Positions 10,007 through 24,010 of a stretch of 64,000 bases of DNA are shown one piece after another. Under the pieces are notes generated by a model. It saw nothing but the letters and a program-made list of their open reading frames with translations. It had not been told where the DNA came from and did not search any database. The translations under genes and the position numbers were made by a program. The first letter of the stretch is position 1, and each line of letters opens with the position of its first letter. The stretch is from Syntrophorhabdaceae bacterium (GTDB lineage: Bacteria; Desulfobacterota; Syntrophorhabdia; Syntrophorhabdales; Syntrophorhabdaceae): NCBI GenBank assembly GCA_963665295.1, contig OY762209.1, forward strand, positions 5,312,001-5,376,000, in the 5' to 3' direction.

Positions 10007-10327
10007 AATTATTTCCCCCTTTAAATCGTATTAGAAAACTGACAGGAATAGCTTTTCGGCATGACATAAGAATAGCAGAACAAAGGCAAACCATCAATAT
10101 ATTCTGAGCGCGACAGGGAGTAGGGAAGGCAAAAGCTGCCGCCATATCCGGCTCGTAAGGCCTTAACATCTCAGGGTCTATGCCCCTGGGCCGGTGTGAT
10201 CGGTCTTCGCGACGCCTCCGATAGCCCCATAATCTATCCGATAAGATATTGACTTCCGCCTGTATTCATGAGATAAGGTCTCAGAGCTAGAATTTTCCGG
10301 CTTCAATAAAAAAAGGGGTGTTAAAGC

Positions 10328-10534
10328 ATGGCAAAAGGAACAGTGAAGTGGTTCAACGATTCTAAAGGTTTTGGATTCATCTCCCAGGAGGACGGCGAAG
10401 ACATCTTTGTCCACCATTCAGCTATCCAGGGAGAAGGTTTTAAGTCTTTATCGGAAGGTGACGCCGTTGAATTTGAAATCGTGAAGGGACCGAAGGGCCT
10501 GAACGCCGCAAACGTGAGGAAGGTTAAATCCTAA
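10328..10534 (+). CDS. Cold-shock protein
   Basis: [12 protein letters not shown] and DIFVHHSAI (RNP1/RNP2). Confidence 0.97.
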
Positions 10535-10797
10535 GGAGCGACGGCAAAGCGACAGGCGCTCTCCATTGCCGAATTGCGTAGCGCAAAAGATTTAATCTGT
10601 CGACTTCCTTGAGGCGCGGGCCGACCGGGCGGGGCTGACAATACACACAGTGAACCCCTTCGGACCCGAGAAACCCGCTTCTCCACTTCTCAGACTTAAG
10701 GTGTCCGTGGCGATCCTTGCATTGGAGTCATAGATTTTTCTGCGTGAGAAGGCAGTCGTAAACTACGCATCAAAATAAACTGAAAAGGAAGCATAAA

Positions 10798-12887: not shown

Positions 12888-12895
12888 AAAGACTT
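12888..12895. repeat. 8-bp target-site duplication AAAGACTT, copy 1 (others at 16164-16171 and 23002-23009)
   Basis: Identical 8-mer directly abuts each terminal inverted repeat. Confidence 0.92.
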
Positions 12896-12960
12896 GGTAG
12901 TGGGTCAGTTTGATTTTTTTCCATATTGATATGCTTAAGCGGTCATGCTAGACTTATGAC

Positions 12961-13233
12961 ATGGCAAAGAAAAGACCGACAGACATAAACTTACTCGCTC
13001 GACAGATCGTAGAGGAAGCCATAGGAGAACCGCTTATAGATAAGGTCCAAGAACCTACCGAAGAAACCCCGACACAGGAACCAGTCAAAGAGAAGAACGC
13101 CGCCGCTGTTGCCCTTGGTAGATTGGGAGGATTGAAGGGGGGCAAGGCACGGGCAGAACGACTTACCCCCGAACAGAGGAAGGAGATCGCTAAGAAAGCG
13201 GCTGCGTCTCGCTGGACAAAGAAAGATCACTGA
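12961..13233 (+). CDS. Small basic KGG-motif accessory protein of element A
   Basis: GGLKGGKARAERLTPEQRKEIAKKAAASRW. Preceded by TTGATA-17bp-TAGACT ending 6 nt before the ATG. Confidence 0.8.
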   Translation: MAKKRPTDINLLARQIVEEAIGEPLIDKVQEPTEETPTQEPVKEKNAAAVALGRLGGLKGGKARAERLTPEQRKEIAKKAAASRWTKKDH

Positions 13234-14239
13234 ATAGTGGTAAGTCTTTGAGTTTAGTATATCTCGGATATGCTCTATCTAACATTACTTTGAATTGTTC
13301 CCATCCCTTGTCTTCTGCTATACGCATCAAGCCTATAACTGCGTATAAATGTTGCGCTAATGCTGGATGGCCTACGTCCTCGGTCAAAAATTGATGGTGT
13401 TTAACTTTCCTGTAGCCCTTATCGTTTTTAGGATTCTTTCTTTCCAGTTCTTCCAGAAGACCAGGAGTAAGGCGACTATAGACTATATCATTCGTGTATT
13501 TGGCTACTATTTGAGGGGGATTAACCTTAAGTCCTTTCCACTCCCATCCCCGTAGTCTAAATATCTCTTTATAGAATTCAAGCGGGAACTTTCTTGCCCA
13601 CGCTGCGAATTCTTTTCTTAAGAACCGATCAAGTATTGCCTGTAATGCTTGACGATCTCTTACGTCTTGGTATCCGGTAGCTTCATCAACGAGGGCAATA
13701 ATACCTACAGTGGCAAGACCCCTAATAAGGATTCTACATTTTTGAGCGATGTGTTTCTGCGTGGCGGTAAGAACACCCGCTTCATCAGCATCAATAAATA
13801 CTCCACATACTTGAGGAAGCAATTCAGCCTTGTAGCCGATAAACTGCGTGTTTTTGTGTTGAAAAATAATGGGAGATGAATTCTCCTTTAAGTCATCAGG
13901 AATATAGGCCTTTATATTATTTGCAGTTAGAAAAACAGGCAGTTTGAATTCATCGTCGTAGGCCCTACCACCCTTAGCTTTCCCCTTTCTGCCTATGGCC
14001 TTAACAAAGGTCGCTCGTGTTAATACTCTCGTGCCATCTTCAAGAACTGCCGCCTTGAATTCTGCGTTGCCTACTTTTAATTCATTGAAATATTCTGTGG
14101 TAAGTACCTTTCCTTCTATGCCAGATTTAGCCCATCGCTTTTGTACTGCCTTCCTCGCTATCTCACTTCTTTGCTCAGGAGTCAATTTGGCCGCTCTTGC
14201 AAAACCACCTTTGGCTTTTCCAGAAGCTTCATCGTCCAT
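13190..14239 (-). CDS. P63C-domain protein with an N-terminal KGG-like motif
   Basis: VLEDGTRVL, VGIIALVDEATGYQ, HHQFLTEDVGHPAL; RBS AAGGAG. Confidence 0.88.
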   Translation of the reverse strand: MDDEASGKAKGGFARAAKLTPEQRSEIARKAVQKRWAKSGIEGKVLTTEYFNELKVGNAEFKAAVLEDGTRVLTRATFVKAIGRKGKAKGGRAYDDEFKLPVFLTANNIKAYIPDDLKENSSPIIFQHKNTQFIGYKAELLPQVCGVFIDADEAGVLTATQKHIAQKCRILIRGLATVGIIALVDEATGYQDVRDRQALQAILDRFLRKEFAAWARKFPLEFYKEIFRLRGWEWKGLKVNPPQIVAKYTNDIVYSRLTPGLLEELERKNPKNDKGYRKVKHHQFLTEDVGHPALAQHLYAVIGLMRIAEDKGWEQFKVMLDRAYPRYTKLKDLPLFSDLSLSSETQPLS

Positions 14240-14342
14240 ACTTGCATTCTCCTTAGTTTTAATACTTGCATTTTATCTTAAAACAACTTTATAATGCAAG
14301 TATTATTTGATGGCAAAAAAGAAACATACTTGCAAAAAAGAC

Positions 14343-14372
14343 TTGACATGCTTAACCGCTCAAGCATATAAT
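14343..14372 (+). promoter_or_regulatory. Sigma70-type transposase promoter overlapped by an ATGCTT-N8-AAGCAT palindrome
   Basis: TTGACA 14343-14348, 18 bp, TATAAT 14367-14372; ATG at 14379. Confidence 0.75.
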
Positions 14373-14378
14373 GTAAAT

Positions 14379-15209
14379 ATGAACAGGTTAGACAGAAAAA
14401 GACAGGCACAGGTGATAGCGGCATTAGTTGAGGGTAATTCTATCCGTGCTACTGTCAGAATGACCGGCGTAGCCAAGAATACCATTGTTAAGCTCCTTGC
14501 CGATATAGGTAGGGCGTGTGCGGAATACCAGGACAAGACCCTGCGCAACTTACCCTGTACCAAAATCCAATGTGACGAGATATGGTCTTTCTGCTATTCC
14601 AAGGAAAAGAACATACCTGAAGACAAGAAAGGTCGCTTTGGATATGGCGATGTATGGACCTGGACGGCATTAGACCCCGATACTAAGCCCATGGTATCAT
14701 GGTTGGTTGCAGATCGCAGCGCAGGGGCCGCCATGGAGTTTATGACCGATCTTTCAGAGAGACTAAGCAACAAGATTCAGCTTACCACGGATGGTTACAG
14801 GATATATCTCAACGCCGTTGAAAGCGCCTTCAGAGGCAACATTGATTATGCCATGCTCGTCAAGATATATGGCAACGACTCGGAAGGTGAAAAGAGATAT
14901 AGTCCCGCCGCTTGTAGAGGCTCGGAAAAGATTGTTGTATGTGGTAAGCCTGATATGCAGCATGTTTCAACAAGCCATGCAGAGAGGCAAAACCTTACGA
15001 TGCGTATGAGCATGAGAAGGTTCACGAGACTCACGAACGGCTTTTCAAAGAAGGTCGAGAATCACAGCCACGCAATATCACTCTATTTCATGTACTATAA
15101 CTTCTGCCGGATTCACCAGACGTTAAGGGTGACACCCGCAATGGCAGCAGGGATAACAGATCATGTATGGGATATTAAAGATATAATAAGTCTTATGTCT
15201 CAAAAATAA
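14379..15209 (+). CDS. IS1-family single-ORF DDE transposase (element A)
   Basis: N-terminal HTH (GNSIRATVRMTGVAKNTI), QCDEIWSF, TTDG, AERQNLTMR, RRFTRLTNGFSKK. Start set by alignment with 17725-18549. Confidence 0.9.
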   Translation: MNRLDRKRQAQVIAALVEGNSIRATVRMTGVAKNTIVKLLADIGRACAEYQDKTLRNLPCTKIQCDEIWSFCYSKEKNIPEDKKGRFGYGDVWTWTALDPDTKPMVSWLVADRSAGAAMEFMTDLSERLSNKIQLTTDGYRIYLNAVESAFRGNIDYAMLVKIYGNDSEGEKRYSPAACRGSEKIVVCGKPDMQHVSTSHAERQNLTMRMSMRRFTRLTNGFSKKVENHSHAISLYFMYYNFCRIHQTLRVTPAMAAGITDHVWDIKDIISLMSQK

Positions 15210-15247
15210 GGAGCATTTCTTGAGACTATTGTTGTTAACGTACCCAC

Positions 15248-15276
15248 TTGACAGATTAGAACAAGTGTGCTACTGT
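15248..15276 (+). promoter_or_regulatory. Promoter-like sequence downstream of transposase A
   Basis: TTGACA-17bp-TACTGT with TG extension. Confidence 0.45.
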
Positions 15277-15321
15277 TCGATATAGAACTAAATGAGGCAA
15301 ATAAGAGCAAAAAAGGATGGG

Positions 15322-16080
15322 CTAGATATCCAAGGCAAGAATGGTGGATTCCATGGCGTTAACCGTGCCGACCACGAGTTGAGACAGTTGATACAGAGTT
15401 GGGAGAACAGGTTGACCCTCGAAAGCCTGTCCTTCATCGAACAATACATTGAAGGCAGGCTTTCCATAATTTGTGATCTTTACCGCGCCACTGAAAGATA
15501 TCGCGTTGAGCTTTTTGCCTTGGGGAACGGCAAGAGTAGTGCCATAAAAGGCGTTCCCGTTTTCATCGATCATGTCTACCCCAGTCAGACCTGCAATGGT
15601 CAGTACGGGGACAAGCAACTTGTGTTTGTCCATGATATCGATTTGGTGGAGGGAATACAAGGCGTCGTTCCCTCCTGGATAAGGCTTAATAGTATCGACA
15701 ATGAGGCCAATAATAGCGGCGGGCAAAGGCTGTTCTTTTCTACCATCCAGGGTTGCTACAAGCTCGTCCCTAGTCTTCCTAAACGGGAACTTCGTATATT
15801 GGGTGGGAGTTTGTCCCGCAATAGTTACCACTTCCCAAAACATCAGATCAAGAGAGGATCGGAGGTTATGGACAATATCTCCCATTACCAATGGAATGGT
15901 TATGGGAAGAGATTTAGTCATCTCAAGCTGTATAACATGCTGTCTAGTGTTAGAATCTTCCTCGACGCTAAGACGGCAAAAATCTTCCTTGGAAAAGAAG
16001 GCAAGGACGGTTACCAACTCGGAGATATGCTGGTTGGCCCTTTCGATCTTGAGGCGCGCTCCTGAAAATAGAGGACTCAT
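15322..16080 (-). CDS. Hypothetical cargo protein, possibly HEPN-like
   Basis: 252 aa with GDIVHNLRSSLD, KFPF and LHQIDIMDKH motifs. The fold call is inference. Confidence 0.6.
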   Translation of the reverse strand: MSPLFSGARLKIERANQHISELVTVLAFFSKEDFCRLSVEEDSNTRQHVIQLEMTKSLPITIPLVMGDIVHNLRSSLDLMFWEVVTIAGQTPTQYTKFPFRKTRDELVATLDGRKEQPLPAAIIGLIVDTIKPYPGGNDALYSLHQIDIMDKHKLLVPVLTIAGLTGVDMIDENGNAFYGTTLAVPQGKKLNAISFSGAVKITNYGKPAFNVLFDEGQAFEGQPVLPTLYQLSQLVVGTVNAMESTILALDI

Positions 16081-16246
16081 ATAAGAGGATATTATCGTTT
16101 ATTTTGGCTTTTGTAAAACAGTTTCGCAAAAGCTTATCTTCTTTTTCAAACTGACCCACTACCAAAGACTTGGTAGTGTCTCAGTTTCACGCAGCCCTCT
16201 CTTGACAAAAGGGTGAAAAAAGATAGCAGCCATGATATACTTAGAT

Positions 16247-16492
16247 ATGCCCAAGGGACCGCAAGGACAGAAACGACCCGCCGATGTAATAGGCAATGCT
16301 ATAACGGTTGCCAGAATCGCCACAGGGGAAATTGAGGAAACTACCGATGGCAAGGATTATGCGCGCGAAGGTGGGCAGAAGGGGGGAAAAGCGAGAGCAG
16401 AGAAACTTACTCCCGAGCAGAGATCCGAGATAGCGAAAAGGGCAGCGGAGATAAGATGGGCAGCGAAGGCGGGGGTTAAGGGTGAACGATAA
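16247..16492 (+). CDS. Small basic KGG-motif accessory protein of element B
   Basis: KRPADV...GGQKGGKARAEKLTPEQRSEIAKRAAEIRW; same position and motif as in element A. Confidence 0.8.
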   Translation: MPKGPQGQKRPADVIGNAITVARIATGEIEETTDGKDYAREGGQKGGKARAEKLTPEQRSEIAKRAAEIRWAAKAGVKGER

Positions 16493-16499
16493 GTTTTTG

Positions 16500-17414
16500 C
16501 TATTGCAGACTTTGGTGTTTAACGAAAGCGACTCCGTTATGATTTTCGATCATCTTGTATGCATCAGTGTTCATTAGACTATGCATGAAGCAATGATGTA
16601 CTGTTAAAATTAGGTCTTGTAGATCGTTGTCGTCTTCTATCCTATCAACACATAATCCAATATCCTCACATTCTTCCATGTGCAGATGTCTTCCGTGAGT
16701 TTTGTTTAGTTGTGGGTCTGATAAACTTTTCGCGATAGCTTTAGCCTTTTTCTTGGCATCCGGTTCCCCGGCAAACATTATTTCTTCAAGTTGATCCTGG
16801 ACAAATTTATTTGACCATTCTATTGCCTTTTCGCATTGGCCTAAAAAGGTAGGCCTGTATTGGCCTATAATGGATACCCATAATGGAATCTTGTCCGGGT
16901 CTTTCTTGCATTCTTTGTAAGCCCTTTTGAACTCTTCAAGAACTCCATAGGCGGGGACCCCTCGCAGATGTGGATCAATAGGCCCTAGATTTGAATGTTC
17001 TGTCATTAGTATTCTCTTACACGAACAGGCAATCATGGTCCCCGCCGACATAGCTATTTGGGGGACAATTGCCCTGACATCGTTCTTGAACATCTTATGT
17101 AAATAATTAACGATCGATTGGGTAGCGGCAATACTACCGCCTTCGGTATGGAGAATAAGGTCAAGCCCCTTGGCTCTGTCCAATTGATGAACCGCCATCA
17201 TAAATCCATTCTTGTCTTCATCGTTGATGTCGGATTGGGCAACATTTGGCTTGGATAAAAAAGCTGAATAGTACGCGATTATATTTCGATTGGTCTTTTC
17301 GTGAAGCTTCTTTAAGTAGTCTCGACGGACAATATCCACAGCGCCTTGTGATTGGCTGTGAAGTTGAGCCTGTGTTATTTGAATTTCTTTAAGAATGTCG
17401 TTCCAATTTGGCAT
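16500..17414 (-). CDS. SDH-family Clp-fold serine proteinase
   Basis: LDLILHTEGG, AMSAGTMIA (catalytic Ser), LGPIDP, HGRH. Confidence 0.88.
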   Translation of the reverse strand: MPNWNDILKEIQITQAQLHSQSQGAVDIVRRDYLKKLHEKTNRNIIAYYSAFLSKPNVAQSDINDEDKNGFMMAVHQLDRAKGLDLILHTEGGSIAATQSIVNYLHKMFKNDVRAIVPQIAMSAGTMIACSCKRILMTEHSNLGPIDPHLRGVPAYGVLEEFKRAYKECKKDPDKIPLWVSIIGQYRPTFLGQCEKAIEWSNKFVQDQLEEIMFAGEPDAKKKAKAIAKSLSDPQLNKTHGRHLHMEECEDIGLCVDRIEDDNDLQDLILTVHHCFMHSLMNTDAYKMIENHNGVAFVKHQSLQ

Positions 17415-17417
17415 TCG

Positions 17418-17597
17418 CTATATCGGCTTTTCGTATGCTCCATATGTTGTTACACTATTTACGATCTTTCGAGCGTGAGGCTGCTCCAACGAATAATCAT
17501 CTGTACCGTGTGTTGTAAAGGGTTTCACTACAATCTCTAGGTACTGAGATTCTATGGATTTCTTTAGCTGCGAAGGTTTTTCTTTCTTTTCTGCCAT
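17418..17597 (-). CDS. 59-aa peptide directly upstream of the protease
   Basis: RBS GAGGAGGTG before ATG (MAEKKEK...); stop 3 nt before the protease ATG. Confidence 0.65.
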   Translation of the reverse strand: MAEKKEKPSQLKKSIESQYLEIVVKPFTTHGTDDYSLEQPHARKIVNSVTTYGAYEKPI

Positions 17598-17689
17598 CAA
17601 TACACCTCCTCTTATCGTGAGGCACTCTTCAAAGCAAGTATAGCACGTTTTTGCTGAAAGAGAAAGAAAGTTTAAACTGCAAATAATGC

Positions 17690-17718
17690 TTGACACCTAA
17701 GCATAAAGTTCATATACT
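17690..17718 (+). promoter_or_regulatory. Transposase B promoter overlapped by an ATGCTT-N7-AAGCAT palindrome
   Basis: TTGACA 17690-17695, 17 bp, TATACT 17713-17718; ATG at 17725. Confidence 0.75.
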
Positions 17719-17724
17719 TACAAT

Positions 17725-18549
17725 ATGAACAAGCTGCCAATATCGAAAAGAGTTCAAATCCTTCAGATGCTTTGCGAGGGATCGTCTATGAGGTCCATAT
17801 CAAGGGTGGCCGACGTATCTATCAACACGGTAACAAAATTGCTAGTGGATGCAGGAAAAGTATGTGCTTCGTATCAAGACAAGACGCTCCGTGGCTTGGC
17901 CTGCAAAAGAGTACAGTGCGATGAAATATGGTCGTTTTGTTACTCAAAAGAGAAAAACATACCTGAAGACAAGAAAGGTCGCTTCGGTTACGGTGATGTA
18001 TGGACCTGGACGGCGTTAGACCCCGATACAAAGCTCATGGTATCATGGTTGGTTGCAGATCGTAGCGCAGGGGCCGCCATGGAGTTTATGACCGATCTTT
18101 CAGAGAGACTAAGCAATAAGATTCAGCTTACCACGGATGGTTACAGGATATATCTCAACGCCGTTGAAAGCGCCTTCAGAGGCAACATTGATTATGCCAT
18201 GCTCGTCAAGCTGTATGGCAATGACTCCGAGGGCGAAAAGAGATATAGCCCCGCTAAATGCCTTGGAGCGGAGAAGTCGATTATATGTGGGTCACCCGAC
18301 AAAAACCATATATCCACAAGCTATGTGGAGAGACAGAACCTTACCATGAGAATGAATATGAGGCGGTTTACAAGACTGACTAATGGTTTCTCAAAGAAAG
18401 TCGAGAATCATTGTCATGCCCTCGCCCTCTATTTCATGGCATATAATTTTGTAAGGATTCACAAAACACTGAGAGTCACGCCCGCAATGGCGGCAGGGGT
18501 GACAGATCATGTATGGGAAATAAAGGATATCATTAGTTTAATTGAGTAA
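17725..18549 (+). CDS. IS1-family single-ORF DDE transposase (element B)
   Basis: HTH, QCDEIWSF, TTDG, VERQNLTMR, RRFTRLTNGFSKK. Confidence 0.92.
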   Translation: MNKLPISKRVQILQMLCEGSSMRSISRVADVSINTVTKLLVDAGKVCASYQDKTLRGLACKRVQCDEIWSFCYSKEKNIPEDKKGRFGYGDVWTWTALDPDTKLMVSWLVADRSAGAAMEFMTDLSERLSNKIQLTTDGYRIYLNAVESAFRGNIDYAMLVKLYGNDSEGEKRYSPAKCLGAEKSIICGSPDKNHISTSYVERQNLTMRMNMRRFTRLTNGFSKKVENHCHALALYFMAYNFVRIHKTLRVTPAMAAGVTDHVWEIKDIISLIE

Positions 18550-18648
18550 ATTTTCACATTTACCTTGACTTGCAACCCCTCCCATGCAAATATTAGTTAA
18601 TGAGTGGCTCCGATGGACGATAATACGTCAAAAGGAGGGTAGGCCATT

Positions 18649-19092
18649 ATGCCAAATTATACTGCTTCCGATATAGCCAATTATTTTCTTTTCAAAGCTC
18701 AAGAGGAAGACCAAGAATTATTATCGAATTTAAAACTTCAGAAACTCGTTTATTATGCTCAAGGACTTCATCTTGCGATTTACGGTGGGCCTCTTTTTGA
18801 TGATAGAATAGAAGCGTGGCAATATGGTCCTGTAATACCCAGCTTATATCATGAATACAAACATTATGGGGCTAGCGGAATCCCTGCCCTAGACAGTTAT
18901 GATCCTCCCATTATCGATGCTGAGACGATTGATTTCTTAGATGAAGTCTATGAGTTTATGGGGCAGTATTCGGCTATTCGTCTGATGGAAATGGCCCATT
19001 CTGATGATTGTTGGATAGACGCTGGAATAGGTAATATAATTACTTGTGATGCCATGAAAAATGACCTAAAAAAGTACCTCAAGGATGAGTAG
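18649..19092 (+). CDS. Panacea (SocA/GepA/DUF4065) antitoxin
   Basis: LKLQKLVYYAQ and EAWQYGPV motifs; RBS AGGAGG. Confidence 0.9.
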   Translation: MPNYTASDIANYFLFKAQEEDQELLSNLKLQKLVYYAQGLHLAIYGGPLFDDRIEAWQYGPVIPSLYHEYKHYGASGIPALDSYDPPIIDAETIDFLDEVYEFMGQYSAIRLMEMAHSDDCWIDAGIGNIITCDAMKNDLKKYLKDE

Positions 19093-19245
19093 ACATCTAA
19101 AAAAATCGCAATCGAAAAGTACTAACCGTTTTCAAGATACAAAGATACCTCCTTCAAAAAACTACGATTTGGAAAAGCCAGTTTTTTCACTGAGACATAT
19201 CGGAACGTGTCAATGAAAATGAGACACTTCCATCAGATATTTAGT

Positions 19246-21166
19246 CCGAAGTTCCCCCTGTGAAATCCCCCCAATATCACTCTATCCCGTTGAAATGACG
19301 GGAATAGGGTGATAATCATATCTTCTACTTGTTGCCATGTAATAGTGCATTATGTACTTGACATGTAGGTAAGCTATTTGCTATATATGTTCCATGTACA
19401 TCGAAAGCATCCCCAACCGCAACTCCCGGCCCGCCATCCTCTTGAGGGAGGCATGGAGGGAAGGCAAAAAGATAAAGAAGAAGACAGTCGCAAACCTCAC
19501 TGATTGGCCGGAAGAGAAGATCGAGCTCTTGAGGCGTGTATTGAAAGGGGAGTCTCTCGTCTCTCCGAAGGAAGCCTTTAAGGTTGAGCAGTCTCTCCCC
19601 CACGGCCATGTGGAGGCCATACTCGGGACAATAAAGAAGCTTGGCCTTGATACGGTCATTGCCTCGAAGCCTGGAAGGGAGAGAGACCTCGTAATCGCCA
19701 TGATCGTGGAACGCCTCATCCACCCCTCATCGAAATTAGCAACTACGAGGCTCTGGCATACTACTTCGGTGGCGGAGGAACTCTCGGTTGCAGATGCCGA
19801 TGAGGACGAACTCTATGATGCCCTGGACTGGCTTTTGGCAAGACAGGAGCGGATCGAGAAGAAGCTGGCGAATAAGCACCTTACCGAGGGCTCGCTCGTG
19901 CTCTACGATGTGACGAGCAGTTACTACGAGGGCCACACCTGTCCCCTTGCGCAGTTCGGCCATGACCGGGATGAAAAGGGAAAGAGGATCATCGTCTATG
20001 GAGTACTCACCGATCACGAAGGCCGACCTGTTGCAGTTACCGTCTATCCGGGGAATACGGGCGATCCCTCTACCATTCCCGACCAGACGGCAAAGCTCAA
20101 AGAAAGATTCGGTCTCGATCACCTCGTCCTCGTGGGCGACAGGGGCATGCTTACGGAGACACAGATTACAAAGATAAAGGAGATGCCCGGCATAGGGTGG
20201 ATATCGGCCCTCAGGTCTTCCGCCATACGCGAGCTTGTGGGACAGGGGAGCATCCAGATGTCCCTCTTCGATACCCAGGACTTTGCGGAAATCACCTCTC
20301 CCGAGTATCCGGGGGAAAGGCTCATCGCTTGCTTCAACCCCCTTCTTGCCGAAGAGAGAAAGAGGAAAAGAAACGCGCTCCTCGATGTGACGGAAAAGAA
20401 GTTGTCCTCCATTGTACGGGCGGTCGGGAGAAGGACAAGGACGCCTCTTTCCGCAGCGGAGATAGGGAAGAAAGTCGGCGCGGTAGTCAACGATCACAAG
20501 ATGGCGAAGCACTTTATCCTTACCATCGGAGACGGGTCCTTCTCATTCGCCCGGAACGAGGAGTCAATCACCGAAGAAGAAGCCCTCGACGGGATCTATG
20601 TGATCCGTACGAGTGAACCAGCCCTTCCTCCCGCCGATGTGGTACGGAACTACAAGAACCTTGCCCGGGTAGAGCGGGCCTTCAGGACCTTGAAGGGCAT
20701 CGATCTTCTCGTCCGTCCCATTCACCACCGTACCGAGGATCACGTGCGAGCCCACATCTTTCTCTGCACCCTCGCCTATTACGTAGAGTGGCATATGAGG
20801 GAGGCCCTTACGCCGCTGCTCTTCGACGATGAGGAGCTTCCCCTCTCACGAACGACGAGAGACCCGGTAAAGCCCGCGGAGTCATCTTCTTCCGCAAAGA
20901 AAAAGAAGACCACCAAGCTCACCCCTGACGGCCTTCCCGTCCAGAGCTTCCGTACCCTCCTTGCCGCACTGGGGACCCGATGCAAAAACCGGTGCAGGAT
21001 GGTTTTGGACTCCATGGCCCCGGCCTTCACCCTTCTTACTGATCCGACACCTCTCCAGGCCCGCGCCCTTGCCCTCCTCGGACTGTAGCCAGTAACGGGA
21101 AATCAATTTCTGCCATAATCATTGGAATATCAAGGTGATGGGTTAATATTGGGCGGGGAACTTCGG
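19246..21166 (+). mobile_element. IS1634-family insertion sequence
   Basis: TIRs CCGAAGTTCCCC / GGGGAACTTCGG; 6-bp TSD TTTAGT (19240-19245, 21167-21172). Confidence 0.9.
19394..21088 (+). CDS. IS1634-family transposase
   Basis: LYDVTSSYYEG, LVGDRGM, YKNLARVERAFRTLK, VRAHIFLC. Confidence 0.92.
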   Translation: MYIESIPNRNSRPAILLREAWREGKKIKKKTVANLTDWPEEKIELLRRVLKGESLVSPKEAFKVEQSLPHGHVEAILGTIKKLGLDTVIASKPGRERDLVIAMIVERLIHPSSKLATTRLWHTTSVAEELSVADADEDELYDALDWLLARQERIEKKLANKHLTEGSLVLYDVTSSYYEGHTCPLAQFGHDRDEKGKRIIVYGVLTDHEGRPVAVTVYPGNTGDPSTIPDQTAKLKERFGLDHLVLVGDRGMLTETQITKIKEMPGIGWISALRSSAIRELVGQGSIQMSLFDTQDFAEITSPEYPGERLIACFNPLLAEERKRKRNALLDVTEKKLSSIVRAVGRRTRTPLSAAEIGKKVGAVVNDHKMAKHFILTIGDGSFSFARNEESITEEEALDGIYVIRTSEPALPPADVVRNYKNLARVERAFRTLKGIDLLVRPIHHRTEDHVRAHIFLCTLAYYVEWHMREALTPLLFDDEELPLSRTTRDPVKPAESSSSAKKKKTTKLTPDGLPVQSFRTLLAALGTRCKNRCRMVLDSMAPAFTLLTDPTPLQARALALLGL

Positions 21167-21167
21167 T

Positions 21168-22166
21168 TTAGTGTACCCCGCCATCGCTCGTTGATAATGG
21201 CTTATTGATCCAGACGGCGTCAGGCAGTGACGCCGGTTTCGGCATCCTCCCCTTGAACCGTTCCGGATGTTTTTCATACGCAGCCCGCAGTACGTCCGTA
21301 CGACCTTCAATGATCCTCAACGCTCTTCCATAATGGACGTCCTCGGGGGTGAGAAGACCTATCCCCGAATGGTAATGCTCGGTATTGTACCAGGGGAAGA
21401 ATGTCTGGCAAAAGGCCCGGGCATCCTCAATGGAGCCGAACCTTTGAGGGAACTCGGGCCGGTACTTCATGGTCTTGAACTGAGATTCGGAATAGGGGTT
21501 GTCATTACTGACCGAAGGCCTCGAATGGCTCTTGGTGACCCCGAGATCGGCCATGAGCAGGGCGACGGGTTTCGACGTCATACTCGACCCCCTGTCCGCA
21601 TGGATCAGGAGCTTACCGGGCTCTATCATTTGCTTCTCGCAGGTCTCCGCGATCAGTTTGCGAGCAAGGGCGGCAAGTTCCCTGTGGGCCACCATCCACC
21701 CCACCACATAGCGGCTGTAGATGTCGAGGATCACATAGAGGTAGTAGTAGGTCCATTTTACGGAACCCTTGAGCTTCGTGATATCCCAGCTCCACGCCTC
21801 GTTGGGCGCCTTCGCGAGGATCTCCGGTTTTGCGTACCGGGGACGGGAGACCTGCCTCCTCCTTTCTTTCAGCTCACCTTCTTCTTCAAGGATCCGGTAC
21901 ATGGTGCGCACTGAACAGAGATAGCTCTTCTCGTCCAGGAGGGCCGCGTAGATTTCCCGGGGTGCTTTATCGATGAAGCGGTCCGAATGAAGGATATCAA
22001 GTACATCGTTCCGTTCCCCGAAGGAGAGGGCCAAGGGAGAGAGACGGTTCAAAGGTTCCTTCTCTTTCGGATGCTGCCACCGGTAAAAGCCCGCACGGGA
22101 TACGTCGAGGGCGTTGCAGGCAGGGCGGATACCCACTTCATGGGCAAGCGATTGCGTGATGTTCAT
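21168..22166 (-). CDS. IS3-like OrfB integrase-core (rve) transposase
   Basis: WSWDITKL, LDIYSRYVVGW, HADRGSSM, NDNPYSESQFKTMK. Confidence 0.9.
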   Translation of the reverse strand: MNITQSLAHEVGIRPACNALDVSRAGFYRWQHPKEKEPLNRLSPLALSFGERNDVLDILHSDRFIDKAPREIYAALLDEKSYLCSVRTMYRILEEEGELKERRRQVSRPRYAKPEILAKAPNEAWSWDITKLKGSVKWTYYYLYVILDIYSRYVVGWMVAHRELAALARKLIAETCEKQMIEPGKLLIHADRGSSMTSKPVALLMADLGVTKSHSRPSVSNDNPYSESQFKTMKYRPEFPQRFGSIEDARAFCQTFFPWYNTEHYHSGIGLLTPEDVHYGRALRIIEGRTDVLRAAYEKHPERFKGRMPKPASLPDAVWINKPLSTSDGGVH

Positions 22167-22561
22167 GACTTCTCCTCGCTCGACCCCTTGAGCAGCTCGG
22201 CCACTTTTTTTTGGACCTCGATAATGAGCTCCGCCTGTTTCAGTTTATGGGTGAGCCTCGTGTTCTCCTTTTCCAGTTCGATGGTGCGACGGATAAGGGG
22301 ATCAGGCTTTTGTGTGACGGGTCCTCTCTTTTTCGGGATGAGGCCCTGGTGAACCTGACGCCGCCATGAGGTGAGGCTCGATGAATAAAGTCCCTCTCTG
22401 CGCAGAAGCGCCCCTATCTCACCCTTCCCGGTACAGTTCTCCACCTCCTTGAGGATACGGAGCTTGTACGCCGCGGTGAATTTCCGGCGAACTGCCTTTT
22501 CCGGTACTTCCGGATCGGGGACTACCCTTGGTGATGCCATGACTGATTTCTTTTCTTCCAC
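22163..22561 (-). CDS. IS3-like OrfA (HTH plus coiled coil)
   Basis: RRKFTAAYKLRIL, LLRREGLYSS..SWR; ATGA overlap with orfB. Confidence 0.85.
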   Translation of the reverse strand: MEEKKSVMASPRVVPDPEVPEKAVRRKFTAAYKLRILKEVENCTGKGEIGALLRREGLYSSSLTSWRRQVHQGLIPKKRGPVTQKPDPLIRRTIELEKENTRLTHKLKQAELIIEVQKKVAELLKGSSEEKS

Positions 22562-22944
22562 GATCGTTCTTTCCTTCCCGCCCCCAAGAGTCTAAACTAT
22601 TGGGTGGGAAGTGTCTCACTTATATTGGCACGGAGGGGATAGTGTATGAAGGGCCATATTGCGTATCCCAATGTGATGAGGAAAAGAAGGCAACTATCTT
22701 GCAAAGATTATTAAGGCTGAGCCAATCAACGTGGCAAGAGATAAAGAGACTACCAAGAGAAGATGGATTTGAAATTATTCCTCACCATAGATTCAGGGCC
22801 CCCCTTCCATCTATTTTAACTCCAGAGACCGTAATACTTGTTGCTCGCTATGATGGTGATGGCGGCAGGCTTGCAGGCTATAGAGACAAAGATGTATACC
22901 ATATAGTCCTTGTAGGCAGAGATTTGTATCCACATTAATTCTTT

Positions 22945-22962
22945 TCAAACTGACCCACCACC
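22945..22962. repeat. Relic IS1-type right TIR inside element B
   Basis: TCAAACTGACCCACCACC, 17/18 match to the element A right TIR. Confidence 0.7.
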
Positions 22963-23007
22963 CTACAAAAAAATTTATCTTTTTCAAACTGAGACACTAC
23001 CAAAGAC

Positions 23008-23038
23008 TTGACAAATTTGCGTGTGTAATATATATAAT
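23008..23038 (+). promoter_or_regulatory. Sigma70-type promoter of the V/A-ATPase operon
   Basis: TTGACA 23008-23013, then TATATAAT 23031-23038 (17-19 bp spacing). Confidence 0.7.
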
Positions 23039-23260
23039 GATATTAGGTTTAGTAGTTGTTCTATCTCCGGTAGCCGAGAGCAGGACGTACTGCTCGGAGT
23101 CTTTTACAGTGGGCGGTGGCGCGAGACGGCAGTAAGCGACAGGAAAAGGTGATTGTCGCGTAACGGTTCAGCATGCGTCACCAGGCGGTTTAACCACGAA
23201 TATCAGTGATGTCGCCGACCCCGGAGGCCGGCGTGCACGCTGAAGGACCAGGGGGTAGAT

Positions 23261-24010
23261 ATGTGCAAGCCTGTTGATTTAAACAAATGTATTTCCTTTA
23301 TTAAGTCCGGATTTCTCCAGAAGATCGACAACGCTTCTCTCTCAACCATGGTAAGGCCGACGGTGACAATTTCACGGATGACGGGGTCCGGCGGACATAC
23401 GGTCGCCGCGAACCTCGCGGATTACCTGCGGATGACCCTGCCGGATCGTGGCGAATGGGCCGTTTTTGACCGGAATCTGGTGGAGAAGATCCTGGAAGAG
23501 CACCATCTCCATAAACGGGTTGGCGATTTCATGAAAGAAGGTCACAAGACCATGTTTACCGACGTGGTGGAGGAGTTGGTAGGTCTCCATCCCGGCGGCT
23601 GGACGCTCTTGCAGAAGACAAATGCCACAATATTGCACCTCGCACAGATGGGAAATGTCATCCTTGTGGGTCGGGGTGCATGCGTAGTGGCGGCCAAAGC
23701 AAGAAACGCCCTCCACGTGCGTCTGGTAGGGTCCCTTGAAAAACGGATCAAATGGGTGGAACGGACCTGTAATGTCGATGCTAAAGCGGCCCTTCAGTTC
23801 ATCAAGAAAGGTGACGAAGGGCGCAGGCGCTACCTGAAAGATAACTTTGATAGAGACGTCGATGACCCGCTCCTCTATCACATGGTTATCAATACGGATA
23901 TTGTGAGCCACGAAGAAGCCGCCCGGATGATCGGCAATGAATTGATCAGGCGGTTCAAACTGGACAGACAGGTGAAGGCGACGGGAAGCAGGCAGAGCGC
24001 GATCCAATAA
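23261..24010 (+). CDS. Cytidylate kinase-like family protein
   Basis: VTISRMTGSGG, VILVGRG, YHMVINTD. Confidence 0.85.
   Translation: MCKPVDLNKCISFIKSGFLQKIDNASLSTMVRPTVTISRMTGSGGHTVAANLADYLRMTLPDRGEWAVFDRNLVEKILEEHHLHKRVGDFMKEGHKTMFTDVVEELVGLHPGGWTLLQKTNATILHLAQMGNVILVGRGACVVAAKARNALHVRLVGSLEKRIKWVERTCNVDAKAALQFIKKGDEGRRRYLKDNFDRDVDDPLLYHMVINTDIVSHEEAARMIGNELIRRFKLDRQVKATGSRQSAIQ

What the first reader, a model, noticed from the sequence alone, without database searches (positions are those of the whole stretch)
12888..23009. Tandem array of two distinct IS1-family cargo transposons at one identical 8-bp site
Seen: AAAGACTT-[TIR A...TIR A]-AAAGACTT-[TIR B...TIR B]-AAAGACTT. The elements have different TIR variants (GGTAGTGGGTCAG versus GGTAGTGTCTCAG), divergent transposases and wholly different cargo. 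They have nearly the same core size (3268 and about 3390 bp) and the same layout: small KGG gene, reverse cargo, transposase, cargo. Known: canonical IS1 is a small cargo-free InsA/InsB element with only regional AT-rich target preference. Inference: a modular, site-preferring transposon family that stacks at one nucleotide position like a cassette array and delivers stress/defence-type genes. This is the best candidate for an undescribed system here.
Basis: partly seen in the sequence, partly recalled or inferred. Interest (0 to 1): 0.85.

Follow-up and report, generated by a model that had tools for sequence, protein, structure and literature searches.

The report
Cargo transposons stacking at docking sites
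Two different gene-carrying jumping elements sit head to tail on the same eight bases because their widespread family tends to land a fixed distance from promoters or from the chromosome-terminus site, so later arrivals pile up behind the same spot, a habit known from other transposon families.

Summary
Observation confirmed: AAAGACTT-[A, 3268 bp]-AAAGACTT-[B, about 3390 bp without two nested IS]-AAAGACTT. Short-read contigs bridge all three junctions. Both are members of a widespread single-ORF IS1-like cargo clade. Stacking recurs: 80 of 94 end-to-end junctions in species genomes have an 8-9 bp spacer, but 78 of the 80 spacers differ, so there is no fixed target sequence. Members land at a fixed offset from a host site. 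A sigma70 -35 box starts 16 bp from the end in 22 of 77 unselected insertions (p about 1e-32). Two separate sub-clades dock 5 bp from dif (17 of 52 stacks, 0 of 77 solos), and there the dif-proximal element is the intact one. The window's own anchor is promoter-like but off-register (TTGACA at +7, TTGCGT at +16). Transposase residue 33 co-varies with TIR base 8. Defence-type cargo occurs in 31 of 91 elements, but none of the window's cargo hits PADLOC. Precedents: IS1202/ISAba32 stacks at dif; ISLre2/ISKra4 promoter targeting. New variant of a known kind.

The parts
12888..12895 (.). Target duplication copy 1 (AAAGACTT)
12896..16163 (+). Element A, 3268 bp, GG-type ends (perfect 18-bp TIR at 12896-12913 and 16146-16163)
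12961..13233 (+). Small basic KGG-motif gene of A (90 aa); conserved family gene, auto-named 'histone H1'; probable regulator (inference)
   Evidence: no Pfam/NCBIfam/PADLOC hit
13190..14239 (-). Cargo: P63C-domain protein (349 aa)
   Evidence: PF10546 E 6e-34
14343..14372 (+). Consensus promoter of transposase A (TTGACA-18-TATAAT), leaderless, with a palindrome in the spacer
14379..15209 (+). Transposase A (276 aa): N-terminal HTH, RNase H DDE core D66/D138/E202, residue K33
15322..16080 (-). Cargo: 252-aa protein of no known family
16164..16171 (.). Target duplication copy 2, shared by A and B
16172..23001 (+). Element B, 6830 bp (about 3390 bp without nested IS), TC-type ends; chimera of a TC-type left half and GG-type right cargo
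16247..16492 (+). Small KGG-motif gene of B (81 aa)
16500..17414 (-). Cargo: SDH-type ClpP-like serine protease (304 aa)
   Evidence: PF01972 E 2e-24; 9-member cargo cluster
17418..17597 (-). Small 59-aa ORF upstream of the protease
   Evidence: only a sub-threshold Abi_C match
17690..17718 (+). Consensus promoter of transposase B (TTGACA-17-TATACT)
17725..18549 (+). Transposase B (274 aa), residue I33; 79% identical to A overall, 48% in the HTH, 99% in aa 78-162
18649..19092 (+). Cargo: SocA/Panacea antitoxin (147 aa)
   Evidence: PF13274 E 5.5e-22
19085..19200 (+). 5' piece of the Panacea partner gene (probable bacterial TA toxin, inference), interrupted by the nested IS
   Evidence: matches N-terminus of intact 143-aa gene in L446
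19201..22637 (-). Nested IS3-family element (orfA 22163-22561, orfB 21168-22166), 10 copies in the genome
19241..21166 (+). IS1634-family element nested in the IS3-family element, 12 copies in the genome
22638..22938 (+). 3' piece of the Panacea partner gene
   Evidence: 71% identical to L446 143-aa gene; no Pfam hit
22945..22962 (-). Inner GG-type right end, 39 bp inside B's true right end
23002..23009 (.). Target duplication copy 3
23008..23038 (+). Candidate anchor promoter: TTGACA at +7 (23008-13), TTGCGT at +16 (23017-22), TATAAT at 23033-38; upstream of a cytidylate-kinase-like gene (23261-24010)
   Evidence: sequence; not called by the 16-18 nt spacer scan; register ambiguous

Best explanation
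A and B are two independently arrived members of a widespread clade of autonomous, single-ORF IS1-like DDE transposons that carry a small KGG gene and exchangeable cargo. The clade chooses its 8-bp target by position relative to a host site, not by the target's sequence: most often so that a sigma70 -35 box starts 16 bp from the element end, and in two separate sub-clades 5 bp from an arm of dif. The anchor and one copy of the 8-mer survive each insertion, so the next element cuts the same 8 bp, lands between the anchor and the earlier element, and the TSD becomes shared. Older, anchor-distal elements usually decay to a lone end. The window is a fresh stack in front of a promoter, B probably second. 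End recognition is modular (HTH residue 33 tracks TIR base 8), and recombination between nested or stacked members swaps HTH-plus-end and cargo modules; B is such a chimera. Shown: geometry, recurrence, offsets, polarity at dif, co-variation. Inferred: that host proteins (RNA polymerase holoenzyme, XerC/XerD) do the tethering, copy-out/paste-in chemistry, the order B after A, and which -35 anchors this site.
For: Gap 8 in 70 and 9 in 10 of 94 junctions, other gaps 1-2 each; 78 different spacers. Spacer equals the outer TSD of one or both elements in 49 of 69 junctions with long flanks, of both in 11. -35 hexamer (>=5/6) at +16 in 22 of 153 flanks of 77 unselected insertions against 0.0024 per offset (p 2.5e-32); a -10 box follows at 16-18 nt in 20 of 32 such sites against 0-2 in seven shifted controls. 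The third family copy in this genome has TTGACA at +16. dif abuts 17 of 52 stacks and 0 of 77 solos; in 5 of 5 genomes checked it is the best dif match of the genome; 0 of 14 ends fetched from a random sample of the same order lie at dif. At 18 dif stacks the proximal element is TSD-bounded (14 intact transposases), the distal one never has an intact transposase, also not within 40 kb in 7 of 7 genomes; the stub is never a copy of its neighbour's end (0 of 45). dif-docking transposases form two separate groups (2 changes vs 15.9 shuffled). Residue 33 is K/R in 52 of 52 elements with G at TIR position 8, I/V in 13 of 13 with T, F in 9 of 10 with A or C.
Against: The window's site is not in the strict register: TTGACA is at +7, only TTGCGT at +16, and the promoter scan does not call it; offset +7 is not enriched (1 of 153, p 0.3; +6 3 of 153, p 0.006). 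40 of 77 solos and 5 of 10 fully bounded stacks show no anchor by my tests, and the +16 signal is weak in viral loci (2 of 25 units). The nearest relatives are mixed: +16 in L447, +9 in L448/L450, none in L446/L459. B, the supposed later arrival, is the one that carries nested IS. A 5-member subgroup (TCCTAATT ends) has T at position 8 with R33. The dif groups are host-lineage clades, so the 13 actinobacterial cases are not independent origins of the trait; the tree is a quick one with SH-aLRT only. The junction scan required a GG-type end on one side. No empty allele was found.
Confidence: 0.7

Rival explanations
1. End-targeting as in IS30/IS911: the incoming element's end attacks 8 bp from a resident end, recreating an IR-spacer-IR junction; anchors explain only where the first element landed.
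For: IR-targeting with IRL-IRR junctions is documented for IS30 and IS911 (PMC9333248 passages). The sharp 8-9 bp gap fits. 21 of 52 stack units show no anchor, the window's site is off-register, and ends nested 22-44 bp apart occur 7 times. Both routes may act.
Against: It predicts the same anchor spectrum in stacks and solos and new elements on either side. Observed: dif 17 of 52 vs 0 of 77 (0 of 14 within the same order), and the intact element is dif-proximal in 14 of 18 with no reverse case.
Confidence: 0.15
2. The offsets come from direct DNA reading or DNA shape (transposase binds TTGACA-like or bent A-tract DNA itself), with no contact to RNA polymerase or Xer proteins.
For: The family's own transposase promoters carry TTGAC(A/T) 35-36 nt before the start codon in 34 of 86 elements; the reversed XerD arm contains TTTACA/TTGACA-like hexamers; A's promoter and the target share AAAGACTTGACA, which occurs 3 times in the genome.
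Against: A -10 box at promoter spacing accompanies 20 of 32 +16 sites; the 15 bp between end and hexamer have no consensus; at XerC-side dif sites no TTGACA-like hexamer faces the element at +16.
Confidence: 0.1
3. The family has a dedicated attachment sequence (AAAGACTT or its locus) and builds an integron-like cassette array there.
For: Three identical 8-mers in the window.
Against: 78 different spacers among 80, none AAAGACTT; 13 same-order relatives at unrelated sites; the third copy in this genome has another TSD; AAAGACTT occurs 182 times in the genome.
Confidence: 0.02
4. Tandem duplication of one element followed by divergence, or an assembly artefact.
For: The transposase genes share a near-identical tract (9 differences in 255 nt).
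Against: Ends, KGG genes, HTH (48%) and cargo differ and each has closer relatives elsewhere while all three TSDs and four TIRs are perfect; short-read contigs from two studies bridge the junction.
Confidence: 0.03

Closest known systems
IS1 family, single-ORF members with passenger genes (tIS; ISMhu11-type group, recalled from Siguier et al. 2009, paper not seen)
   Same: Pfam DDE_Tnp_IS1 above cut-off; 54-60% homologues are annotated 'IS1 family transposase'; ends begin GGT; 8-9 bp TSD; HTH without zinc finger; passengers on both sides of the transposase.
   Different: Below the NCBIfam IS1 cut-off (57-66 vs 100 bits); no InsA/InsB frameshift; fixed-offset docking at promoters and dif, stacking and an HTH-TIR code were not found for IS1 in ten library searches. 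Whether ISfinder lists members of this clade could not be checked.
IS1202 family, ISAba32/ISAjo2 subgroup (bioRxiv 10.1101/2022.12.17.520857; PMC10132070)
   Same: Insertion 5 bp from an Xer arm; different IS stacked at one site, separated by the shared repeat, proximal element inferred to be last.
   Different: 400-500 aa transposase, 5-6 bp repeat, always the XerC side, rarely cargo. Here 275 aa, 8 bp repeat overlapping the arm by 3 bp, XerC side in Solirubrobacterales and XerD side in Acidobacteriota, either orientation, routine cargo, and promoter docking in the same clade.
TnGBS / ISLre2 (p-MULT3) and ISKra4 (p-MULT4) Mutator-type elements (PMC3942029)
   Same: Insertion about 15-17 bp upstream of sigmaA -35 boxes; near-perfect TIRs go with either orientation, as here (12 vs 9). 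The best structural match of the model is the IS256-type ISCth4 transposase (Z 13.4, rmsd 3.8, 223 aligned, 15% identity).
   Different: No Mutator-family profile hit in Pfam or NCBIfam; shorter enzyme; stacking not seen in the passages read.
IS30 / IS911 IR-targeting and IS dimers (PMC9333248)
   Same: IR-spacer-IR junctions made by insertion next to a resident end.
   Different: 2-3 bp spacers, same element, unstable intermediates; here 8-9 bp spacers equal to the TSD, different elements, polarity towards a host site.

Membership tests
IS1 family | DDE transposase matching IS1 profiles | tested here: inconclusive
   PF03400 31.4 and 29.2 bits (cut-off 24.1) but only over about 43 residues; NF033558 best family, 57-66 bits, cut-off 100; DDE triad conserved
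IS1 family | Short TIRs beginning GGT and 8-9 bp TSD | tested here: met
   (feature itself recalled)
IS1 family (canonical IS1) | InsA zinc finger and InsA/InsB frameshift, no cargo | tested here: not met
   single ORF starting with an HTH, cargo present
IS1 family, ISMhu11-type tIS group | No zinc finger, HTH kept, passengers up- and downstream (recalled) | tested here: met
   definition from memory, 'ISMhu11' has 0 papers in the library
IS1 family, ISMhu11-type tIS group | Clusters with the named ISfinder members | not testable with these tools
   ISfinder sequences not available
IS1595 family | Transposase matches IS1595 profile | tested here: not met
   NF033547 23-27 bits, cut-off 75; no PF12762 hit
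IS1202 / ISAba32 subgroup | 400-500 aa transposase and 5-6 bp repeat | tested here: not met
   274-276 aa, 8 bp
IS1202 / ISAba32 subgroup (works like) | Insertion 5 bp from an xrs arm with shared-repeat stacks | tested here: met
   met by two relative sub-clades; not by the window, whose genome's dif at C1:3906642 is unoccupied
ISLre2 / ISKra4 (p-MULT) | Mutator-type transposase sequence | tested here: inconclusive
   no profile hit; fold nearest to ISCth4 at 15% identity, close to integrase rows
ISLre2 / ISKra4 (works like) | Insertion 15-17 bp upstream of a -35 box | tested here: met
   family level: 22 of 77 unselected insertions; at the window's site inconclusive
Copy-out/paste-in IS | Circle with abutted ends | tested here: inconclusive
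   no circle or excision joint in contigs of 4 runs, which drop rare forms
Anti-phage defence cargo | Cargo protects against phage | not testable with these tools
   PADLOC 0 of 9 window proteins; hits in relatives

The most novel reading that the evidence does not exclude
The clade is a natural set of docking transposons whose 275-aa transposase has switched host tethers by lineage (RNA polymerase at promoters as the ground state; XerC and XerD gained separately; perhaps operator-bound promoters), and whose end specificity is set largely by one HTH residue and one TIR base. Orthogonal elements can then queue at one safe site, recombine and trade defence cargo, so stacks act as the clade's cargo-shuffling workshop. 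That would be a compact retargetable, multiplexable safe-harbour integration system.
Probability: 0.3. Interest if true: 0.8.

Novelty: new variant of a known kind. Interest (0 to 1): 0.6.

Why it matters
IS1-type elements are usually regarded as having only regional AT-rich preference (recalled). A very common environmental clade (62 of 401 genomes of this phylum carry its end motif, partly by chance; Acidobacteriota, Actinomycetota, Alphaproteobacteria, phages) instead inserts at single-base precision beside promoters or dif and carries defence/TA genes. Promoter and dif docking were each known from one unrelated family; finding both, and both dif sides, in one clade of 55-80% identical small enzymes makes the open question of how DDE transposases find protein-bound targets testable by domain swaps. 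The HTH-33/TIR-8 co-variation predicts orthogonal transposase-end pairs.

Tried and rejected
Empty site in relatives: left flank matched only the upstream transporter gene (4 of 40 relatives) and right flank only the kinase-like gene (18 of 40); no empty allele or excision joint in 4 runs; no RNA holder listed. Junction scan in viral contigs: 0. Rfam: nothing in the array or the right-hand leader. Idea that stacks favour unlike ends: 38 of 69 junctions unlike, 31 GG-GG, no excess over what the solo frequencies give; rejected. Idea that distal partners are large elements: no transposase within 40 kb in 7 of 7 genomes; rejected. Self-duplication: 0 of 45. Complex prediction of transposase with the host sigma region 4: no verdict (score 0.01), not used as evidence. 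No IS1-family structure appeared in the fold search. Careful tree did not finish; quick tree used. KGG and 252-aa proteins stayed unnamed. 28 of 176 cargo cluster representatives (the shortest) were not scanned, and many ORFs in GC-rich elements are probably spurious. Literature: searches found no report of promoter or dif docking or stacking for IS1-like elements; the library lacks most subscription papers, the Siguier 2009/2014/2015 reviews were not readable, and ISfinder/TnCentral could not be queried.
Full report
Observation. The sequence is as described. AAAGACTT stands at 12888-12895, 16164-16171 and 23002-23009. Element A (12896-16163) and element B (16172-23001) each have perfect TIRs of their own variant. 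B holds an IS3-family element (19201-22637) with an IS1634 inside; both are multi-copy in the genome, 10 and 12 copies. Without them B is about 3390 bp. Contigs from two short-read runs of two studies bridge the left flank-A, A-B and B-right flank junctions. One run may be the source sample, and no piece spans the whole array.

Anatomy. Each element has a small KGG-motif gene, reverse cargo, a leaderless transposase gene behind a consensus promoter, and further cargo. Cargo is P63C and an unnamed 252-aa protein in A; an SDH-type protease, a Panacea antitoxin and its IS-interrupted partner in B. None of 9 window proteins hits PADLOC. The transposases have an N-terminal HTH and a conserved D66/D138/E202 triad. 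The model (pLDDT 76.6) is an RNase H fold, nearest to ISCth4 at Z 13.4. Pfam IS1 passes its cut-off, NCBIfam IS1 does not; plasmid homologues are annotated IS1 family.

The family. The end GGTRGTGNNTCARTTTGA is clade-wide. I assembled 91 end-bounded, transposase-bearing elements (nearly all with a matching TSD) of 1.9-7.5 kb, median 3177 bp. 75 carry the KGG gene, and 252 cargo ORFs fall into 176 clusters. Of 148 cluster representatives scanned, strong PADLOC hits include type I R-M, GmrSD, SoFic, RosmerTA, PD-Lambda-2 and PDC systems. By cluster, 31 of 91 elements carry such cargo, 35 with Pfam TA/NYN families.

Stacking recurs but has no fixed sequence. A scan of species genomes for a right end followed within 0-30 bp by a left end gave 94 junctions: gap 8 in 70, gap 9 in 10, any other gap at most twice. 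The scan needed a GG-type end on one side. 78 of the 80 spacers differ and none is AAAGACTT. In the 69 such junctions with long flanks (80 of 94 loci had them), the spacer equals the outer TSD of both elements in 11, of one in 38, of neither in 20; 3 of the last have it inverted. Stacking is rare per element: 1 junction among 220, 0 among 93 and 0 among 102 strong ends in unselected viral, genome and metagenome loci, and only this genome among 401 of its phylum. Thirteen same-order relatives sit at unrelated sites, unstacked.

What fixes the position. In 77 unselected TSD-bounded insertions (153 flanks) a -35-like hexamer starts exactly 16 bp from the end in 22 flanks, against 0.0024 per offset (p 2.5e-32). 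A -10 box follows at promoter spacing in 20 of 32 such sites, against 0-2 in shifted controls. The signal is 17 of 38 in metagenome loci, 3 of 14 in genome loci and 2 of 25 in viral loci; 40 of 77 show no anchor. The third family copy in this genome is at +16. An earlier scan note pointed to this offset; I re-derived it on my own set. Among 52 stack units, 17 abut dif, with the Xer arm starting at +6, against 0 of 77 solos. The site matches the published dif layout (PMC10132070 passages) and is the best dif match in 5 of 5 genomes. In a random sample of the same order 0 of 14 fetched ends (about 8 credible elements) were at dif. Actinobacterial elements dock on the XerC side and acidobacterial ones on the XerD side; their transposases form two separate groups (SH-aLRT 97 and 92, quick tree), while +16 docking is scattered over the tree. 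A further 8 stack units are at +16, 5 at +6 to +8, 1 at a loose +16, and 21 show no anchor; 42 of the 52 had only one free flank to test.

Order of arrival. At 18 dif stacks the proximal element is TSD-bounded and 14 have intact transposases; no distal partner has one, even within 40 kb in 7 genomes. Distal partners are lone ends, 27-36 bp scars or non-autonomous remnants, and never a copy of the neighbour's end (0 of 45). This polarity is what repeated insertion at an anchor predicts; pure end-targeting does not predict it. None of the 69 junctions matched the window in having two TSD-bounded elements with intact transposases.

The window's own anchor is the weak point. The right flank has TTGACA at +7, TTGCGT at +16 and TATAAT 19 nt behind the TTGACA; the promoter scan does not call it. 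TTG alone at +16 is enriched in the remaining solos (12 of 131, other offsets 0-7), and TTG at +6 in non-dif stacks (7 of 43), but a strict box at +7 is not. The genome's dif (C1:3906642, at the GC-skew maximum) is empty. I infer a promoter anchor with B second, and cannot exclude end-targeting here.

End recognition and chimerism. The TIR dinucleotide is the same at both ends in 81 of 83 solos. In 80 elements, residue 33 of the HTH has the highest mutual information with it: K/R in 52 of 52 with G at position 8, I/V in 13 of 13 with T, F in 9 of 10 with A or C; a divergent 5-member subgroup is an exception. The TC class needs 7 changes for 7 rows on the catalytic-core tree, so the pairing is not merely inherited with the core. 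A's HTH is 88-92% identical to GG-type relatives and 48% to B; B's is 87% to a TC-type relative. B's right cargo and inner GG-type end resemble those GG-type relatives, so B is probably a recombinant of a TC element and a GG element nested near its right end. A and B also share a conversion tract. Direct base contact by residue 33 is inference.

Comparison. Different IS stacked at one xrs and separated by the shared repeat are published for ISAba32-type IS1202 elements (bioRxiv 10.1101/2022.12.17.520857, passages and section 9). Insertion about 16 bp upstream of -35 boxes is published for TnGBS/ISLre2/ISKra4 (PMC3942029, passages). IR-targeting is published for IS30/IS911 (PMC9333248, passages). 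IS with passenger genes (tIS) are known in several families (PMC7986276, passages); the IS1 ISMhu11 group is recalled, not seen. No supplements were read. Ten library searches found no such targeting for IS1-like elements, within a library that lacks most subscription papers.

Verdict. A real, well-formed stack, explained by anchored insertion in a common IS1-like cargo clade. Each ingredient has a precedent in another family; their union in one clade, XerD-side docking and the HTH-TIR co-variation appear undescribed. New variant of a known kind; interest 0.6.

Noticed in passing
window 14337-14348 and 23002-23013: A's transposase promoter and the target site share the 12-mer AAAGACTTGACA, found only 3 times in the genome among 2497 TTGACA sites; relatives' promoters keep CTTGAC but not the A-tract. 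Unexplained, may be chance.
   Followed up: partly
window 12926-12954 and 14343-14372: The KGG-gene promoter and the transposase promoter of A carry a similar palindrome (TGCTT..CGG/CCG.TCA.GC) in their spacers, conserved in GG-type relatives and different in TC-type ones: a likely shared operator.
   Followed up: partly
G000:C1:1899181-1902971 (L445): Third family member of a divergent subgroup (TCCTAATT ends, no KGG gene), at +16 of TTGACA, TSD 7 of 8, carrying a KilA-N/BstA-like gene.
   Followed up: yes
L161, L162, L232: At three dif stacks the spacer is the reverse complement of the outer flank, as if the whole two-element composite had inverted.
   Followed up: partly
L068, L179, L182, L216, L225, L417: 27-36 bp scar elements made only of two overlapping ends with a TSD.
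   Followed up: partly
L166, L203, L221: An alphaproteobacterial sub-clade stacks where TTGAC starts at +6, followed by GAAC/GTTC repeats that look like LexA boxes (motif recalled).
   Followed up: partly
L167, L208, L418: Three Solirubrobacterales insertions lie about 11 bp from a similar imperfect palindrome (TACTWTA.-4-GTAAAGTA), possibly a third kind of anchor.
   Followed up: no
L187, L193, L199, L214, L222, L227, L236 (distal stubs): The relic ends at actinobacterial dif stacks share about 100 bp with repeated ATGTGAGAC words, i.e. an older related element family.
   Followed up: no
window 19214-19231 and 22607-22622: The inner TIR of the nested IS3-family element (GGAAGTGTCTCATTTT) resembles B's TIR at 14 of 16 positions.
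   Followed up: no
window 23040-23260: A 220-nt leader with a hairpin (23078-23095) precedes the cytidylate-kinase-like gene and what looks like a V-type ATPase operon (not tested); no Rfam match. The insertions separated its -35 from the upstream T/A tract.
   Followed up: no
window 13190-14239: The P63C cargo begins with its own KGG-like segment, similar to the small KGG genes.
   Followed up: no
window 10156-10565: Cold-shock protein gene with a sub-threshold cspA leader match (E 0.0035).
   Followed up: no
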